39,636 nt of DNA from positions 1 to 39,636 of the IMG/VR virus record IMGVR_UViG_3300017589_000262; one strand, written 5' to 3'. The translations under genes were made by a program, and so were the position numbers. Below the pieces are notes generated by a model, which saw nothing but the letters and a program-made list of their open reading frames with translations, made no database searches and was not told where the DNA came from. Position 1 is the stretch's first letter, and each line of letters opens with the position of its first letter. This document shows, piece by piece, positions 9,668 to 23,041 of this stretch. The stretch comes from a virus. Lineage: Duplodnaviria; Caudoviricetes.

Positions 9668-9910
9668 ATGCACCAATATCGAATCAACAGGCGGGGAGGA
9701 GATGTGCTTGTCCGAAAGTGTGAGCACCAGCAGGAAACATGCAGCGATTGCCCTTTCTGGACGGCTTGTCTCCCTCTGGCGAGCTTCTGCGGGAAAAACG
9801 CGGACAAGAAGGCCAAAGCATATCTGAAGAAACTGAACCCAAACGGACGGCTCGCCATAGATGACGCCGCACGCCCGCAACCCTCTAACCGCAAGGGAGC
9901 ACGCACATGA
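9668..9910 (+). CDS. Small Cys-rich hypothetical protein
   Basis: GAGGAG/AGAGG upstream of ATG 9668; CEHQQETCSDCPFWTACLPLASFC; coupled to HU. Confidence 0.55.
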   Translation: MHQYRINRRGGDVLVRKCEHQQETCSDCPFWTACLPLASFCGKNADKKAKAYLKKLNPNGRLAIDDAARPQPSNRKGART

Positions 9911-10194
9911 CCAAGAAAGACCTGATCAATCTGGTGAACCAGAAGCTCGACGGCAAGCACGGCTCGAACATTAAGCGCGTGGAGGACACCCTGGAAGCCC
10001 TGGGCGAGGTCGCCCAGGAGACGCTGAAGAACGGCGGCGAGGTGACCTTTCCTGGGCTTGGCAAGCTGGTGGTGGTGGCGACCAAAGCTCGGGCGGGCCG
10101 GAACCCCAAAACGGGCAAGGAGATCGAAATCCCGGCCGGGCGCAAGCCGAAGTTCCGGCCCGGCAAGGAACTGACCGAGGCCCTGAAGATTTAG
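9907..10194 (+). CDS. HU-family DNA-binding protein
   Basis: MTKKDLI...FPGLGKL...ARAGRNPKTGKEIEIPA..KPKFRPGKEL signature. Confidence 0.95.
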   Translation: MTKKDLINLVNQKLDGKHGSNIKRVEDTLEALGEVAQETLKNGGEVTFPGLGKLVVVATKARAGRNPKTGKEIEIPAGRKPKFRPGKELTEALKI

Positions 10195-10200
10195 ATGCAA

Positions 10201-10260
10201 GCGAAACCGCCCACATGGGCGGTCGCCGGGGCGTGGTTGCCTCGGCCTGATGAGCAGCCA
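10201..10260 (+). ncRNA. Type II hammerhead ribozyme with loop I / 3' tail pseudoknot
   Basis: GAAA 10203-10206; stem III ACCGCCC/GGGCGGT; GUC 10222-10224; stem I GCCGGGGC/GCCTCGGC; CTGATGA 10247-10253; 2-bp stem II GC/GC; pseudoknot TGGTT/AGCCA. Confidence 0.9.
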
Positions 10261-10271
10261 ACGGAGGGAAC

Positions 10272-17202: not shown

Positions 17203-17507
17203 ACAGCTTTGAACGCCTGTTGAACGAGGACCGCCGCCTGATGATTCTGCGCCTGTTGGCCCAGGACCCCGGCTACCGCGCCAACGTGTATGTGCTGCGC
17301 CCGGCGCTCGATGCCGTTGGCCACACGGTGAGCTTGGACAAGGTGGAGGCCGACCTGGCCTGGCTGGCAGAAATGGGCCTCGTCACGGTCGCCCAGGCTT
17401 CCGGCGTCACCGTGGGCACGCTCACCCAGCGCGGGGCGGACGTGGGGGCCGGGCGCGCTACCGTGCCCGGCGTGAAGCGGCCCGAGCCCAGCGGGCCGGA
17501 GGTTTAG
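17199..17507 (+). CDS. Mu gp26-like winged-helix protein
   Basis: EDRRLMILRLL...DLAWLAEMGLV...LTQRGADVGAG...PGVKRP. Confidence 0.85.
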   Translation: MNSFERLLNEDRRLMILRLLAQDPGYRANVYVLRPALDAVGHTVSLDKVEADLAWLAEMGLVTVAQASGVTVGTLTQRGADVGAGRATVPGVKRPEPSGPEV

Positions 17508-17510
17508 GCC

Positions 17511-18080
17511 ATGCCGCGCAAGTCCACCGTCCGCCGCCTGCCGCCAGAGATCCGCGAGCAGATCGGCGCGCTGCTCGAACAGGGCCGCACCTTGAGCGAG
17601 ATCACCGCGCACCTCACCCAGCTGGGCGCGGAGGTCTCCCGCTCGGCCCTGGGCCGGTACAAGCAACGTCTGGACAAGGTGGGGGAAAAGCTGCGCCGTT
17701 CGCGCGAGGTGGCCGAGGCGCTCATCGCCAAGCTGGGCAATGCCCCGGAATCCAAGGCCCTGCGCCTCAACGTGGAGCTGCTGCACGGCGTGCTTACGGA
17801 CTTGGCGTTGAACGCCAACGAAGAGAGCGAAGGCGGCGAAGCGGCCGAGGGCAAGGCAGTGACCTTAGATCCCATGGGGGCCATGCTGCTTTCCAAGGCC
17901 CTTGACCACCTTGCGCGGGCCAGTAAGGCCGATGCCGAGCTGGTGGGCAAGATCAGGGAACAGGCCGAAGCCGCCGCGCGTAAAGCAGCGGCGGAAACCG
18001 CCGTCACCGCCGCGCGCAAGGGCGGGCTCTCCGCTGAATCGGCGGACGCCATCCGCCGCGAAATTTTGGGGATCAAATGA
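17511..18080 (+). CDS. Terminase small subunit (DUF3486 / Mu gp27)
   Basis: MPRKSTVRRLP...SRSALGRY...GLSAE...IRREILGI. Confidence 0.88.
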   Translation: MPRKSTVRRLPPEIREQIGALLEQGRTLSEITAHLTQLGAEVSRSALGRYKQRLDKVGEKLRRSREVAEALIAKLGNAPESKALRLNVELLHGVLTDLALNANEESEGGEAAEGKAVTLDPMGAMLLSKALDHLARASKADAELVGKIREQAEAAARKAAAETAVTAARKGGLSAESADAIRREILGIK

Positions 18081-19552
18081 GCGCGCCCGCTGTCCTTTTG
18101 CCCTATCAGCAGGCCTGGGTCGCGGACCAATCGCCGGTCAAGGTGGGCGAAAAGAGCCGCCGCGTGGGCTTTTCCTGGGCCGAGGCCGGAGACGATGCCC
18201 TTACCGCCGGTTCCATGCCCGGCGCGGGTGGCATGGACTGCTGGTATGTGGGCTACAACCAGGACATGGCCAAGGAATTCATCCGCGACGTGGCGGACTG
18301 GGCGCGCCAGTACAACCTGGTGGCGGGTGAGGTGCAGGAGGAATACCTGAAGGACGAGGACAAGGACATCCTCACCTTTGTGGTGCGCTTCGCCTCCGGC
18401 TACCGGGTCACGGCGCTTTCCAGCCGCCCCAGCAACCTGCGCGGCAAACAGGGCGTGGTGGTCATCGACGAGGCCGCGTTCCACGACCAGTTGGACGAGC
18501 TGCTCAAGGCCGCCTTTGCGCTCCTCATCTGGGGCGGCAAGGTGCGCATCATAAGCACCCACAACGGCACGGACAACCCGTTCAACGAGCTGGTGCTTGA
18601 CGTGCGCGCCGGAAAGAAGCCCTACAGCCTGCACCGCGTGGAGTTCCGCGAGGCCGTGAACCAGGGCCTGTACAAGCGCATCTGCCTGGTGAGCGGCAAG
18701 ACATGGACCCAGGAGGCCGAGGACGCCTGGGTGCGCGAGCTGTACGAATTCTATGGCGAGTCCGCCTCGGAGGAGTTGGACGTCATTCCACGCGCGGGCG
18801 GCGGGGCCTGGCTGACGCGGGCGCTCATCGAATCCGCCATGCAAGAGGGTGTGCCGGTGTTCCGCCTGCACAAGCCGGACGAGTTCACCTTGCTTCCGGC
18901 GCAAATTCGCGAGGCTGAAACCCGCGATTGGTGCGAGGAATTCCTTGCCCCGGCCCTGGCCGCGCTGGACCCCACCCTGGACCACTTTTTGGGCGAGGAC
19001 TTCGCCCGCTCCGGCGACTTGACCGACCTGTGCCCGCTGGCCCAGGCGCAGAACCTGGACCTGCGCGTGCCCTTTGTTGTGGAGCTGCGCAACATGCCCT
19101 TCGAGCAGCAGCGGCAGATCGTTTTCTACATTCTGGACCGGCTGCCGCGCTTCCGGGCCGCCGCTTTCGATGCGCGCGGCAACGGCCAGTACCTGGCCGA
19201 GGTGGCCATGCAGCGCTACGGCCCCGGCCGCATAGCCCAGGTGATGCTTTCCGTGGAGTGGTACCGCGACAACATGCCCCCGCTCAAGGCCGCCCTGGAG
19301 GATAAGACGCTTTCCGGCCTGCCCAAGGACGCGGACATATTGGCCGACCTGCGTTCCGTGCGCATGGAAAAGGGCGTGGCCAAGGTGCCGGACAACGCCC
19401 GCGTGCGCGGAGCGGACGGACGCGACCGGCACGGCGACTTTGCCGTGGCCATCGCCATGGCGCACTTTGCCGTGCGGACCATGGAGCCCGTGGCCATCGA
19501 ATACGAATCCCTGAACCAGCCGCGCTTCACCACGCGCCTGGCCGACTACTAG
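18077..19552 (+). CDS. Terminase large subunit (Mu gp28-like)
   Basis: LLPYQ, EKSRRVGFSW, LRGKQG.VVIDEAAFH, nuclease DFARSGD, HGDFAVA. Confidence 0.93.
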   Translation: MSAPAVLLPYQQAWVADQSPVKVGEKSRRVGFSWAEAGDDALTAGSMPGAGGMDCWYVGYNQDMAKEFIRDVADWARQYNLVAGEVQEEYLKDEDKDILTFVVRFASGYRVTALSSRPSNLRGKQGVVVIDEAAFHDQLDELLKAAFALLIWGGKVRIISTHNGTDNPFNELVLDVRAGKKPYSLHRVEFREAVNQGLYKRICLVSGKTWTQEAEDAWVRELYEFYGESASEELDVIPRAGGGAWLTRALIESAMQEGVPVFRLHKPDEFTLLPAQIREAETRDWCEEFLAPALAALDPTLDHFLGEDFARSGDLTDLCPLAQAQNLDLRVPFVVELRNMPFEQQRQIVFYILDRLPRFRAAAFDARGNGQYLAEVAMQRYGPGRIAQVMLSVEWYRDNMPPLKAALEDKTLSGLPKDADILADLRSVRMEKGVAKVPDNARVRGADGRDRHGDFAVAIAMAHFAVRTMEPVAIEYESLNQPRFTTRLADY

Positions 19553-19564
19553 CCCGGAGGAACC

Positions 19565-21091
19565 ATGGCCACCCCCAAGAAGCCCAAAACGCCCGCCATG
19601 AAGGAGCTGCGGCAGGAGATCGCCACCGTTGACCGGGATATCCTGTTTCCGGCCTTCGACGGCATTCTGCGCAATCTGGACGACACCCTGCTGACGCGGG
19701 GCGGCGCGGAAGGGCTCAAGATTTACGACAATCTGGAGCGCGACGGCTCGGTCTACGGCTACCTGAGCAAGCGCAAGCTGGCCGTTACCGCACGGGCGTG
19801 GGAGGTTGTGCCCGGCGGGCCAGGGGCCAAGGAAAAGAAGGCCGCCGAAGTGGTGAAGGCCATGTTGGAGACCGTGGGCTTCGACCGGCTGTGCAAGAAC
19901 CTGATGGACGCCGTGCTGAAGGGCTTCGCCGTGGCCGAGATACTGTGGGAGACCGACGGCGCCACCTACTTTCCGCGCGAGATCAAGCCCAAGAACCAGC
20001 GCCGCTTCCACTTCGACACGGACGGGGCCTTGCGCCTGCTCACCCCGCAGGACATGTACCAGGGCGAGCCGGTGCCGGAGCGCAAATTCATCGTGCATAC
20101 CTTTGGCGACAAGGACGGCTCGCCCTACGGCCTGGGCCTGGGCTCCAGGCTCTTTTGGTACGTGCTGTTCAAGCGCGAGGACTTCCGCTCCTGGCTGCTC
20201 TTCCTGGACAAATTCGCCAGCCCCACGGCCGTGGGCAAATACCCGCCGGGCTCGGCCAAGACAGAACAGGATAAGCTGCTGGCCGCCCTGGGGGCCATTG
20301 CCCGCGATGCCGGGGTGGTCATTCCCGAAGGCATGGCCATTGAGCTGCTGGAGGCCAAGCGGTCCACCGCAGGCAGCCACGAGGCCTTTTGCCGCTACCT
20401 GGACGAGCAGATAGGGCTCATCATCCTGGGCGACGCGCCAGGCGCGAAGGACAGCGGCGGCGCGCTGGCCAGCGCGGCCATACTGCGCAACGAGGTGCGT
20501 TTGGAGCTGGTGGCGGACGATGCCGACCTGCTTTCGGCCACGCTGAACAAGACCTTGCTCACGTGGATCACGGAGCTGAACGTGCCGGGAGCCCTGCCCC
20601 CCACAGTGTGGCGAGACGTGAAGCCTGCGGAGGACCAGACCGCCCGGAGCCAGCGCGACAAGAACCTTGGCTCCCTGGGCTTCCGGCCAACCCTCAAGAC
20701 TGTGCAGGAGACCTACGGCGGCGAGTGGGAGCCTATTCCCGGCTTCGGCGCGGGCAAGGGCGGTCCCATCAGCGACACCCCAACGGCTTCCGACGGGGCG
20801 GACGCTTCGGCCTTTGCCGAGGGCGGCGACGCTGTCGAAAGCTACCCGGCCCAGCTGGCGCTTGATGACGCGGCGGACAACCTGCCTGCCGATGAACTGG
20901 ACGCGGCCATGCGCGCTCTCATCAAGCCCGTGGTGGCCATGCTGGCCCAGGGCGGCAGCCCAGAGGACGCCATGACCAGGCTTGCGGAGATCTACCCGGA
21001 CCTGGACGCCACCAGCCTGGCCACCCAGCTGGCCCGCGCCATGTTCGTGGCCCAGGTTTGGGGCAGGCTTTCCGCCGAAAGCGAAGGCTAG
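19565..21091 (+). CDS. Portal protein (DUF935 / Mu gp29)
   Basis: MDAVLKGFAVAEILW, PYGLGL, FLDKFASP..VGKY, IPEGMAIELLEA. Confidence 0.92.
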   Translation: MATPKKPKTPAMKELRQEIATVDRDILFPAFDGILRNLDDTLLTRGGAEGLKIYDNLERDGSVYGYLSKRKLAVTARAWEVVPGGPGAKEKKAAEVVKAMLETVGFDRLCKNLMDAVLKGFAVAEILWETDGATYFPREIKPKNQRRFHFDTDGALRLLTPQDMYQGEPVPERKFIVHTFGDKDGSPYGLGLGSRLFWYVLFKREDFRSWLLFLDKFASPTAVGKYPPGSAKTEQDKLLAALGAIARDAGVVIPEGMAIELLEAKRSTAGSHEAFCRYLDEQIGLIILGDAPGAKDSGGALASAAILRNEVRLELVADDADLLSATLNKTLLTWITELNVPGALPPTVWRDVKPAEDQTARSQRDKNLGSLGFRPTLKTVQETYGGEWEPIPGFGAGKGGPISDTPTASDGADASAFAEGGDAVESYPAQLALDDAADNLPADELDAAMRALIKPVVAMLAQGGSPEDAMTRLAEIYPDLDATSLATQLARAMFVAQVWGRLSAESEG

Positions 21092-21094
21092 CCC

Positions 21095-22345
21095 ATGCTT
21101 GAAATGCCGGACCTTTCTTACGCCCTGGGCCTGCCGCCGGAGCGGGCCATCAAGTATTTTGAGGCCAAGGGCTACGCCTTCTCGTGGGACTGGCGCGAGG
21201 TATGGCAAGAGGCCCACGCCAAGGCCTTCACCGTGGCTGGCGTTATGAAAATGGACGTGCTGACGGACATTCGCGCGGGCGTTGAACAGGCGTTGATAGA
21301 AGGGAAAACGCTCTCCCAATTCGAACGCGAGCTTGAGCCGCTGCTGAAAAAGCGCGGTTGGCTGGGCAAGGGCGAAGTGCGCAACGCCCTGACCGGCGAG
21401 GTGGAGGGCCGCCGCCTGGCCCCGAACCGCCTGGCCACCATCTACCGTACCAACATGCAGAGCAGCTACATGGCCGGGCGCTACCAGCGCTTTGTGGAGA
21501 ACGCGGCGGCCCGGCCCTTTTGGGAATACGTGGCCGTCATGGACAACCACACCCGGCCGGAGCACGCGGCCTTGAACGGCCTGGTCTTTCCGGCGGGCGA
21601 TTCTTTCTGGAATTCGTACTGGCCGCCCAATGGCTGGCGCTGCCGTTGCCGCGTCATCGCCCTCACGCATGGCGAGGCCCACGCCGAGGGCCGCACCGTG
21701 CAGGACTCCGAAGGGCACATGTCCGAAAAGGAGGTGCCCACGGGCAAAGCCCGGCCTGGCCAGCCCGCGCTCAAGGCCAAGGTGGCCACCTTCGAGCTGC
21801 GGCCCGGCCTGTCCATCTCGCCGGACCCCGGATTCAGCTACAACCCCGGTAAGGCCGCCTGGCCGGAGCTGCAAGACGTGCTGGCCAGGAAAATGGAGGC
21901 TGCCCCCCAGGCCTTTGCCTCCCAGATCGCGCGCGAGCAGGCCCTGGGCCCAGGCTTCAAGGCGTTCCACGCCAAGCCGCAAGGCGATTGGCCTATAGCC
22001 AAACTGCCGCCCGAGGACGCCAAGGCCATAGGCTCGCGCACGGCAACGGTGTTGCTCTCTGCGGACACCATGAAAAAGCAGCTGCGGGAGCATGCGGAGC
22101 TTGCGCCGGAGGAATACGAAAAAGCTCAGGTGGCCATCGACGCGGGGAGCAAGGTGCAGGATTCGCCGACCTCCTTGGTTTACATCCTGGAGGAAACGGG
22201 CAAAGGCGCGGGCGGTTACGTGACCGTGGTCAAGGCCACGCACACGGGCAAGGCAGCATTTTTGACAAGCCTGCGGCGGCTCTCGCGTGACGAGGTGAAG
22301 CGGGACATGGAGATACAGCGGCTGCTGAAGAAGAGCGGAAAATGA
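21095..22345 (+). CDS. MuF (gp30) head morphogenesis protein with C-terminal BECR/PBECR2-like nuclease extension
   Basis: AFTVAG, YRTNMQSSY.AGR, D.HTRPEH, PPNGWRCRC, PDPGFSYNPG; about 130 extra C-terminal residues with QLREH..L...EY...VVKAT...FLTSLRR. Confidence 0.85.
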   Translation: MLEMPDLSYALGLPPERAIKYFEAKGYAFSWDWREVWQEAHAKAFTVAGVMKMDVLTDIRAGVEQALIEGKTLSQFERELEPLLKKRGWLGKGEVRNALTGEVEGRRLAPNRLATIYRTNMQSSYMAGRYQRFVENAAARPFWEYVAVMDNHTRPEHAALNGLVFPAGDSFWNSYWPPNGWRCRCRVIALTHGEAHAEGRTVQDSEGHMSEKEVPTGKARPGQPALKAKVATFELRPGLSISPDPGFSYNPGKAAWPELQDVLARKMEAAPQAFASQIAREQALGPGFKAFHAKPQGDWPIAKLPPEDAKAIGSRTATVLLSADTMKKQLREHAELAPEEYEKAQVAIDAGSKVQDSPTSLVYILEETGKGAGGYVTVVKATHTGKAAFLTSLRRLSRDEVKRDMEIQRLLKKSGK

Positions 22346-22346
22346 C

Positions 22347-22493
22347 GAAGGCTGCCTTATCCTTTCGGAGTAATGCAGCCTTCAACATGGCGGGTGGTGG
22401 GGCCTCCCTCCGCTTGCGCGGCAACCCCACATGGCGCTCCGTGGGCAAATCCACGTGCTACGGCCGGGAGTATGTCACCGTGTCGCACCCGTT
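22347..22493 (+). ncRNA. Candidate structured RNA downstream of MuF
   Basis: Hairpin GAAGGCTGC/GCAGCCTTC, then a multi-stem domain closed by CGGGTG/CACCCG with a CTCCC/GGGAG pseudoknot; no credible ORF. Confidence 0.55.
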
Positions 22494-22528
22494 AATTGGC
22501 ATATAGGACTGACCACAAAGGAAGTCAA

Positions 22529-23041
22529 ATGTTCCAGCTAAAAATTGACTCGGCCCGTGCCGCCCACGCGCTGGAGATGCTGCGCGTTTCCTGCCTGGAC
22601 GCCTCCCCGGCCATGCGGGCCATTGCGGGAGACATGGAGCGCGCCGTGGAGAAGAACTTCGCCAGCCAGGGCCGCCCGGCCTGGCTTGGCCTTGCGCCGG
22701 GGACCATCGCCTCGCGCATCAGGAGCGGCACCTGGCCTGGCAAGATTCTCTGGCGCTCTGGCCAGCTGGCCAGCAGCATCGAGATACGCTCCGACGCCAC
22801 CAGCGCCACCGTGGGCACCAACCTGGCGTATGCGGCCATTCAGCAGCTTGGCGGCCGCACCCGCGCGCACACCATTACCGCGCGCAAGGGCAAGGCCTTG
22901 GCCTTCGGCGGCATCTTCCGGCGTTCGGTCCACCACCCAGGCTCCAACATCCCGGCCAGGCCTTTCCTGGCGCTGGACGTGAGCGACGAGCGGGAAATCC
23001 AAAACACCGTGCTTTTGTTCCTCCAGGGGCGGTTCGAGTAG
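22529..23041 (+). CDS. Virion morphogenesis protein (Mu gpG family)
   Basis: NFASQGRP.W, IL..SGQLASSI, VGTNLAYAAIQQLGG, IPARPFL. Confidence 0.9.
   Translation: MFQLKIDSARAAHALEMLRVSCLDASPAMRAIAGDMERAVEKNFASQGRPAWLGLAPGTIASRIRSGTWPGKILWRSGQLASSIEIRSDATSATVGTNLAYAAIQQLGGRTRAHTITARKGKALAFGGIFRRSVHHPGSNIPARPFLALDVSDEREIQNTVLLFLQGRFE

What the first reader, a model, noticed from the sequence alone, without database searches (positions are those of the whole stretch)
21095..22528. MuF with an RNase-like extension is followed by a pseudoknotted non-coding element instead of an immunity gene: candidate protein/RNA module
Seen: after the MuF core (PPNGWRCRC...FSYNPG) the protein continues into a C-terminal domain (KKQLREHAELAPEEYEKAQVAID...LVYIL...YVTVVKAT...FLTSLRR). 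The 183 nt between its stop and gene G hold no credible ORF but are densely paired. A hairpin spans 22347-22383. A second domain is closed by CGGGTG(22391-22396)/CACCCG(22486-22491) and contains GTGGGG/CCCCAC (22397-22402/22425-22430), CCGC/GCGG, CGTGG/CCACG (22440-22444/22451-22455) and a crossing pair CTCCC(22404-22408)/GGGAG(22466-22470). Established: MuF proteins can carry C-terminal toxin domains that are normally followed by a protein immunity gene, and type III toxin-antitoxin RNases (ToxN/ToxI) are inhibited by pseudoknotted RNAs. Inference: the domain resembles the PBECR2/BECR RNase fold (from memory, not a search), and this RNA may be its antitoxin, substrate or cofactor, possibly packaged with it.
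Basis: partly seen in the sequence, partly recalled or inferred. Interest (0 to 1): 0.82.

Follow-up and report, generated by a model that had tools for sequence, protein, structure and literature searches.

The report
Phage RNase with tRNA-shaped RNA antitoxin
A phage head protein ends in a predicted RNA-cutting toxin domain, and right behind it lies a small conserved structured RNA gene, predicted to be read from the opposite strand and shaped like a tRNA, that likely acts as the toxin's antidote in place of the usual immunity protein.

Summary
The element is real, but it is most likely read from the minus strand. It is a ~105-nt four-arm RNA with a kissing-loop pseudoknot. All six helices are supported: five covary on both sides, P2 is nearly invariant. 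It has a conserved sigma70 promoter, and stable tetraloops occur on the minus strand only (174 vs 0). The MuF tail is predicted to fold as a colicin-D/CdiA-like BECR RNase with conserved Lys/His/Lys/Ser.

In 209 MuF loci chosen by the MuF core, tails of this clade with all four residues carry the RNA (47 of 47). Degenerate tails (15 of 16, several lineages) and short MuFs (44 of 44) lack it; so does phage Mu. Other PBECR clades carry other RNAs in the same slot, some plainly tRNA-derived without CCA. About half of the copies outside curated viral contigs are orphans.

Best reading: a virion-delivered tRNase neutralised by a tRNA-shaped decoy RNA (~0.57). Expression, binding and toxicity are not shown. 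I found no description in print; a 2023 catalogue probably lists a fragment without name or function.

The parts
21095..22345 (+). MuF (Mu gp30-like) minor head protein with C-terminal extension, 416 aa, between portal and gene G
   Evidence: PF04233 res 58-188; phrog_220
21938..22342 (+). C-terminal domain (res 282-416), predicted colicin-like BECR/PBECR RNase fold; conserved K328 (22076), H333 (22091), K380 (22232), S392 (22268)
   Evidence: model pLDDT 91; structural matches; conservation 96/96/93/95% in 168 proteins
22389..22493 (-). structured non-coding RNA core ('type A'), four-way junction P1/P2/P4/P5 with loop-loop helix P3
   Evidence: model hit 22385-22496 minus, 104 bits (the window was in the training set)
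22389..22493 (-). P1 closing helix, 22493-22486 with 22396-22389 (acceptor-stem position; 6 pairs in this copy)
   Evidence: 7 of 8 pairs change on both sides
22460..22481 (-). P2 hairpin, 22481-22477 with 22464-22460 (D-arm position); its loop holds the 5' half of P3
   Evidence: 100% paired, nearly invariant; part of the search pattern for many rows, so no independent covariation
22404..22470 (-).
   Evidence: six complementary variants in 212 of 217 copies; 4 and 12 separate compensatory changes on a protein tree
22436..22458 (-). P4 variable hairpin (anticodon-arm position), capped by short variable loops
   Evidence: 5 of 7 pairs covary
22397..22430 (-). P5 helix, 22430-22424 with 22403-22397 (T-arm position, stacked on P1), with optional inner hairpin P6 22421-22410 (GNRA loop)
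   Evidence: 5 of 7 pairs covary; P6 missing in about a fifth of rows
22500..22528 (-). predicted sigma70 promoter: -35 TTGACT (22528-22523), 17 nt, -10 TATATG (22505-22500); overlaps the ribosome-binding region of gene G
   Evidence: read from sequence; conserved in relatives. This copy lacks the last T of the -10 box, so the scan did not list it
22347..22383 (-). accessory hairpin 3' of the RNA, probable weak terminator for the minus-strand transcript
   Evidence: terminator-like hairpin plus U-run in 38 of 212 copies vs 2-9 in shuffles; absent in many relatives
22529..23041 (+). gene G (Mu gp31-like virion morphogenesis protein), neighbour, not part of the module
   Evidence: PF05069

Best explanation
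The MuF tail is a predicted tRNA-cutting BECR toxin likely carried in the phage head, and the conserved structured RNA behind it, predicted to be made from its own opposite-strand promoter, likely neutralises it by acting as a tRNA-shaped decoy that the toxin binds but cannot use. Shown here: the fold prediction, the conserved residues, RNA structure by covariation, strand and promoter by conservation, and the one-way coupling (intact domain always with an RNA; RNA often alone). Inferred: a host-polymerase promoter makes the RNA in the lysogen and at once after DNA entry, whereas the late operon that makes MuF is silent until induction. The RNA would then protect lysogens from toxin brought in by related virions, protect the producer cell in late lysis, and rescue a newly infected cell only if the phage DNA survives to be transcribed. 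An RNA antidote needs no translation, which is what a tRNase would shut down. Orphan and tandem copies would be immunity taken up by hosts and by toxin-less elements.
For: Fold: the best PDB matches are BrnT Z 6.2, CdiA-CT NC101 6.1, a Salmonella TA toxin 5.8, colicin D 5.6 and CdiA-CT O32:H37 5.5; the viral library gives MuF-C/PBECR-type proteins (best E 5.7e-5). H333 ends the helix before the sheet and S392 lies on the last strand, the active-site layout given for PBECR and colicin-like tRNases (PMC5512222 passages; bioRxiv 2026.08.28.747851 section 10). Coupling in 71 rows of this clade: four of four residues, 47 of 47 with RNA (46 by model or pattern, L494 by eye); three of four, 8 of 8 (5 by model, 3 other RNAs by eye); two or fewer, 15 of 16 without (the exception is frameshifted). 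Short MuF 0 of 44. In 54 rows of other PBECR-like clades next to gene G, 39 of 41 His-bearing tails have a gap of 50 nt or more and 11 of 13 His-less tails do not. Mu F has no His, no gap and no RNA; a tail 57% identical to it (L272) has the His and a tRNA-like RNA (Rfam tRNA 35.5 bits). Eight of 8 non-BECR enzyme tails have a small sense ORF in the gap instead; 7 of 41 RNA gaps hold any ORF of 45 aa or more. Two domains without MuF (L317, L354) keep the convergent RNA. Orphans lie beside integrases, methylases, HipA, SIR2, PIN and RelA/SpoT genes, sometimes in tandem with different P3 sequences (L305, L591) or alternating with a tRNA-like RNA (L338).
Against: No expression evidence: the RNA runs held only low-depth patches of relatives, over coding and non-coding DNA alike. 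The Z-scores are under 8, a range the tool says may mean only a common arrangement; Foldseek on PDB found nothing at E<=0.001; no Pfam PBECR model reaches its cut-off. RNA class is not strictly matched to protein clade: types A and B are interspersed on the protein tree, and L144, with a different tail, carries type A. About half of the copies outside curated viral contigs have no domain nearby (31 of 63 genome loci; 32 of 66 metagenome loci), and only 2 of 30 orphan genomes hold this clade anywhere; an independent role for the RNA fits that as well. L486 has lost the His but keeps an RNA; L096/L202 has the RNA with a short MuF. Type A itself is not detected as tRNA-like by ARAGORN or Rfam; the tRNA shape is an analogy of layout. 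Counts are not independent: about three to four separate losses lie behind the 15 degenerate rows, on a quick tree of 129 columns.
Confidence: 0.57

Rival explanations
1. Cargo or anti-defence particle: the tail is an RNA-binding (or maturing) domain that loads the tRNA-shaped RNA into the virion and delivers it, and the RNA is the active part, a decoy against host tRNA-cutting defences. The domain decays once the RNA is lost; the RNA can also work alone from its promoter.
For: Explains the same one-way coupling, the many orphans, the loose match between RNA class and protein clade, and orphans kept beside Mu protease genes (L305, L319, L323). PMC5512222 suggests RNA binding for inactive MuF-C.
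Against: The residues kept are the His/Lys/Ser set of colicin-like active sites. Other toxin tails have an immunity-sized ORF in this same slot. Orphans often sit among host defence genes. The degenerate domains that could be plain binders are the ones without RNA.
Confidence: 0.2
2. Cis-antisense control, as in convergent type I antitoxins: the RNA pairs with the late mRNA at the end of muF and triggers its decay, silencing leaky toxin expression in the lysogen.
For: Convergent layout with own promoter; in several relatives the RNA overlaps the muF stop codon (L014, L033, L070); coupling to an intact toxin is expected too.
Against: Pairing in cis needs no conserved tertiary fold, yet the kissing helix covaries repeatedly. 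Orphans and tandem arrays have no target. In L069 and L335 about 1 kb is inserted between muF and the RNA.
Confidence: 0.1
3. Substrate or switch: the RNA is the dedicated target or an activating cofactor of the RNase, so that incoming MuF cuts an RNA made by a resident prophage and thereby signals superinfection or lifts an exclusion function.
For: Coupling to catalytic residues; predicted constitutive expression in the lysogen; RegB-like roles for phage BECR nucleases are raised in PMC5512222.
Against: No conserved single-stranded variable stretch that could serve as a guide; no effector gene is consistently linked; does not explain tRNA-derived siblings with closed ends as simply.
Confidence: 0.08

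Closest known systems
MuF-C / PBECR domains (Iyer et al. 2017, PMC5512222; Pfam PF18819, PF18810, PF18812); Ct_MAD of Jamet et al. 2017 (PMC5576092)
   Same: [quoted passage not shown]
   Different: The passages read mention no partner RNA ('ncRNA', 'noncoding RNA', 'RNA motif' 0 hits; 'intergenic', 'non-coding' 0 hits). This clade reaches no Pfam cut-off. Ct_MAD identity was not tested.
MuF polymorphic toxins with immunity proteins (PMC5576092)
   Same: MuF core plus variable C-terminal toxin in the head module of a temperate phage; a small partner gene directly downstream that goes when the toxin goes.
   Different: The partner is a non-coding RNA on the opposite strand, not a small sense ORF (89% of the toxins in that paper have such an ORF).
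Type III toxin-antitoxin systems ToxIN, CptIN, TenpIN, and AbiF with its RNA (all recalled, not read here)
   Same: An RNase predicted to be held by a pseudoknotted RNA.
   Different: Here the RNA is single-copy, downstream and convergent, with a four-arm kissing-loop fold; the toxin is BECR and fused to a virion protein; ToxI arrays lie upstream in one operon and are cut by the toxin.
tRNA (RF00005) and tRNA mimics such as bacterial Y RNA YrlA (recalled)
   Same: Siblings in other PBECR clades keep D-loop and T-loop motifs and score 33-47 bits on RF00005 (L283, L272, L429, L338). Type A has the same order of arms, P5 stacked on P1, and a P2-loop/P5-loop contact.
   Different: No CCA (0 of the 11 rows whose T arm the script parsed correctly), extended closing stem, no 7-nt anticodon loop. 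In type A the elbow position is a 5-bp Watson-Crick kiss, and no tRNA model detects it.
DNAVirus_1035 / DNAVirus_615 (Fremin et al. 2023, PMC10690425 supplement)
   Same: An anonymous 76-nt candidate, 139 sequences, within 25 bp upstream of Phage_tail_S/COG5005 genes, hosts Rhodobacterales, Nitrosomonadales, Desulfovibrionales, overlapping a second candidate on the opposite strand. Probably a fragment of this RNA or a sibling.
   Different: Identity not verified (the sequence files could not be opened). Listed with 2 covarying bases; the rows seen give no name, function, or link to MuF-PBECR.

Membership tests
PBECR / colicin-like BECR RNase | helix followed by a 4-5 stranded sheet (BECR fold) | tested here: met
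   model helix 42-51, helix 57-69, four strands; the top five PDB matches are all BECR toxins, Z 5.5-6.2, modest scores
PBECR / colicin-like BECR RNase | His (with Lys) on the pre-alpha helix and Ser/Thr on the terminal strand | tested here: met
   K328 96%, H333 96%, S392 95% of 168 proteins; their closeness in 3D was not measured
Pfam PBECR2 / PBECR3 / MuF_C | score over the curated cut-off | tested here: not met
   no hit for P0001; PBECR3 only at E 1e-4 to 1e-3 in a few relatives, below cut-off; Atlas scores 0.83-0.85 are leads
PBECR / colicin-like BECR RNase | RNase (tRNase) activity | not testable with these tools
   needs an assay
MuF polymorphic toxin | MuF domain in the head module of a temperate phage | tested here: met
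   terminase-portal-MuF-G order; record classed as provirus
MuF polymorphic toxin | small immunity ORF directly downstream | tested here: not met
   no frame conservation; 7 of 41 gaps hold any ORF of 45 aa or more
Type III TA (ToxIN/CptIN/TenpIN) | tandem-repeat antitoxin upstream of the toxin in one operon | tested here: not met
   one copy in the genome, downstream, opposite strand
Type III TA (ToxIN/CptIN/TenpIN) | ToxN/MazF-like toxin fold | tested here: inconclusive
   not among the 50 rows; absence from the list does not exclude it
Type III TA (ToxIN/CptIN/TenpIN) | pseudoknotted RNA | tested here: met
   P3 covaries, but as a loop-loop kiss
Type III TA (ToxIN/CptIN/TenpIN) | RNA binds and inhibits the toxin protein | not testable with these tools
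   the complex tool takes proteins only
tRNA | cloverleaf with T-loop motif, 7-nt anticodon loop and CCA end | tested here: not met
   window RNA: no ARAGORN call even at relaxed threshold, no Rfam hit
Rfam ribozymes and riboswitches | match to a family model | tested here: not met
   no match over the element down to E 10 other than chance fragments at its edges

The most novel reading that the evidence does not exclude
Mu-like phages carry a family of virion-delivered tRNases whose immunity factor is an RNA evolved from tRNA. The family runs from near-intact cloverleaves to forms in which the elbow is rebuilt as a kissing loop. The pair works as a dead-man switch: the injected toxin kills any cell that destroys the phage DNA before the RNA is transcribed, and bacteria collect arrays of these RNAs as orphan immunity.
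Probability: 0.3. Interest if true: 0.95.

Novelty: categorically new. Interest (0 to 1): 0.87.

Why it matters
It would be the first polymorphic toxin known to me whose immunity factor is an RNA, and a case of tRNA recast as an antitoxin. It answers an open point in the MuF literature: proteobacterial MuF tails had no known toxin domain and no immunity gene. It gives a simple marker (gap and RNA present) for which MuF-C domains are active. It also offers a set of natural tRNA-shape mimics with swappable elbows. The clade has 1116 clusters at 50% identity (E<=0.001), and sibling clades carry at least four other RNA layouts. A two-plasmid test decides the main claim.

Tried and rejected
Plus-strand cis element or riboswitch for gene G: rejected on tetraloops (174 vs 0), promoter and G-U usage, and because the RNA persists where G is not adjacent. 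Small immunity ORF (22342-22506 plus, 22230-22454 minus): rejected, no frame conservation. Terminator only: the hairpin is optional, the core is what is conserved. Known Rfam family: none. Functional tRNA: no. Self-cleaving ribozyme: no family match, and it would not explain the tie to the His; not excluded by test. The type A model does not detect type B or the tRNA-like siblings, so common ancestry of these classes is not shown; the hand-picked alignment is only suggestive. Expression: two read-laying runs gave contig patches only (98, 102); no conclusion either way. Sequence search of PDB: nothing relevant. Profile comparison with the Mu F tail: not significant. blastn of the RNA against GenBank phages and plasmids: no match. 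Metagenome scan with the stand-alone L317 domain: nothing. The crude RNA detector (43 of 53 vs 1 of 13) also fired on 10 of 44 short MuFs and found only 28 of 42 known copies, so the gap count is the better figure. In one search seven tails were mis-measured as short and were reassigned; the type B pattern fired wrongly on L459. In one search the script took the wrong T-loop in 9 of 20 rows, which were dropped. The -35 signal is partly confounded by the first codons of gene G. The careful tree did not finish; the quick tree left out 4 of 71 rows. No protein complex job was run. Literature: nine searches found no description of the pair; the library lacks most subscription papers, and the supplement of Weinberg 2017 and files 1-2 of Fremin 2023 could not be opened and may bear on novelty.

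Full report
Setting. The window is a complete Mu-like provirus record. The order is small terminase, large terminase, portal, MuF, gene G, then the head genes. The host is not given and was not traced.

Observation. Rfam has no family for the element.

The protein. Residues 282-416 have no Pfam or PHROG hit of their own. The predicted model (pLDDT 91) has a helix, a second helix and a four-stranded sheet. Its five best solved matches are BECR toxins: BrnT Z 6.2, CdiA-CT NC101 6.1, a Salmonella TA toxin 5.8, colicin D 5.6, CdiA-CT O32:H37 5.5. These scores are modest, and Foldseek on PDB gave nothing at E<=0.001. The viral library (3 hits at E<=0.001, MuF-C-labelled proteins just behind) and the Atlas (PBECR2, MuF_C, PBECR3 at 0.83-0.85, leads only) point the same way. 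In 168 proteins K328, H333, K380 and S392 are 93-96% conserved. That is the His-on-helix, Ser/Thr-on-last-strand layout described for PBECR (PMC5512222, passages) and for the colicin-like group, whose studied members mostly cut tRNA (bioRxiv 2026.08.28.747851, passages and section 10). Activity is inferred, not shown.

The RNA. Of the 80 viral loci found with the domain I ran the model on 66, leaving out 14 near-duplicates. Fifty carry the window-like RNA (type A) and 16 a second class (type B: 11 by pattern, and 5 near-copies of those). That set was selected with a motif containing K380, so it is biased to intact domains. An alignment of 94 type A copies gives six helices: 95.7% of cells paired, 23 of 36 pairs changed on both sides, slid controls 39-50%. 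Unsupervised covariation returns the same pairs, and 67 copies from bacterial genomes repeat the nested helices (that alignment was fitted to the model). The crossing helix P3 occurs as six complementary variants in 212 of 217 copies; on a tree of 122 neighbouring proteins its C-G to A-U change arose about 4 times and its C-G to G-C change about 12 times, both sides together each time. The layout is a four-way junction: P1 closes it, P2, P4 and P5 are arms, P5 stacks on P1, and the loops of P2 and P5 kiss.

Strand. On the minus strand the wobble positions read G-U, not A-C. Closed GNRA/UUCG/CUUG tetraloops number 174 on the minus strand and 0 on the plus strand in 212 copies. A TAnnnT box lies 22-30 nt before the core motif in 97 of 212 (shuffles 27 +/- 5), and a -35 box at 16-18 nt in 85 of 187 (shuffles 10 +/- 3); the -35 is partly confounded by gene G codons. 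In the window the promoter is TTGACT-17-TATATG (22528-22500), with a non-consensus last base. The 22347-22383 hairpin then lies at the 3' end; terminator-like ends occur in 38 of 212 copies. Transcription itself was not shown.

Coupling. To avoid selecting on tail or RNA, I fetched 240 loci by the MuF core; 209 were complete and distinct. Short MuF: 0 of 44 with RNA, usually abutting G. This clade, 71 rows: all four residues, 47 of 47 with RNA; three of four, 8 of 8; two or fewer, 15 of 16 without. On the quick tree the degenerate rows form at least three separate lineages among intact ones. In the largest cluster of other tails (66 rows, 54 next to G), 39 of 41 with a His in the matching segment have a gap of 50 nt or more and 11 of 13 without do not (not corrected for kinship). 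Those gaps hold clade-specific antisense structures behind a -10 box. Twenty have a T-loop motif, and L283, L272 and L429 pass the Rfam tRNA cut-off in small searches while lacking CCA and a normal anticodon loop. Others have a P2/P5 kiss with different letters (L506 group CGGA/UCCG; L547 group CGCC/GGCG; read by eye). Mu itself has a His-less tail, overlapping F and G and no RNA, in line with the inactive domain noted in PMC5512222. Eight tails that I read from their motifs as ADP-ribosyltransferase, metallopeptidase or JAB-like (labels recalled, not from a call) are followed by a 49-100 aa sense ORF instead, the arrangement described in PMC5576092 (passages).

The reverse direction. Searching by the RNA, 72 of 80 flanked viral loci have the domain, but only 32 of 63 genome loci and 34 of 66 metagenome loci. 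Only 2 of 30 orphan genomes hold this clade elsewhere, each time with its own RNA; many are incomplete assemblies, and other clades were not searched genome-wide. Orphans span several phyla and lie beside integrases, methylases, transposases, toxin and defence genes or Mu head genes. Some are tandem with different P3 letters, and one array alternates type A with a tRNA-like RNA (L338, 46.6 bits). Two domains without MuF keep the convergent RNA (L317, L354).

Reading. An intact domain never lacks an RNA, the RNA goes when the active site decays, and the RNA survives alone. That asymmetry, the slot it fills, the enzyme's kinship with tRNases and the tRNA-like siblings point to a decoy antitoxin (0.57). 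The cargo or anti-defence reading fits the same counts (0.2); antisense control (0.1) and substrate or switch (0.08) fit less well. The loose match between RNA class and protein clade suggests recognition of shape rather than sequence, but it also weakens a strictly cognate model.

Novelty. Nine literature searches found no description of the pair (listings only, apart from the papers named). PMC11109978 has no relevant term in its main text. The supplement of PMC5737381 could not be read, though its motifs should be in Rfam (recalled). Supplement tables of PMC10690425 list an anonymous candidate, DNAVirus_1035, whose position and host range fit this RNA; its sequence could not be seen and the main text was not read. 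So the RNA may have been catalogued, but the rows seen tie it to no protein or function. It works like a type III antitoxin if the reading holds, yet fails that family's defining layout and the MuF immunity-gene rule, so I rate it categorically new, with the function untested.

Noticed in passing
window 10199-10263 +: Type II hammerhead ribozyme, 70.2 bits, starting 5 nt after the stop of ORF 9907-10194, which looks HU/IHF-like by my reading (not scanned).
   Followed up: no
L338 2144-2470: Orphan array in which a tRNA-like RNA (RF00005 46.6 bits, enlarged anticodon arm, no CCA) alternates with type A copies, next to a HipA gene and a repressor.
   Followed up: partly
L321 712-4428: Tandem cassettes of MuF, tail and RNA with different tails, like a polymorphic toxin array.
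   Followed up: partly
L069 3050-3870; also L335, L148: A DNA methyltransferase-like cassette (L069, my reading) or other DNA is inserted between muF and its RNA; the RNA stays next to gene G.
   Followed up: partly
L018, L031, L040, L064 and others, minus strand behind muF: Type B RNA shares the CUCCC/GGGAG kiss but appears to carry an extra H-type pseudoknot in place of P4; L064 has two tandem copies. No model was built.
   Followed up: partly
L427, L435, L457, L463, L473 and others: A further, shorter antisense RNA class (about 70-80 nt) behind tails with an HxxxKH motif, often overlapping the muF stop.
   Followed up: no
L136, L090, L096/L202, L149: Type A copies in phages without the domain: before an HNH-like gene, before gene G in a rearranged locus, with a short MuF in the sense direction, and near a tRNA end.
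   Followed up: partly
P0050, P0078, P0115, P0119; P0136: MuF proteins of this clade with an intein in the MuF core; one with an ADP-ribosyltransferase domain added behind the BECR domain.
   Followed up: no
window 17504-22243 -: A 1579-codon open frame antisense to terminase, portal and muF; most likely a shadow of high-GC codon use.
   Followed up: no
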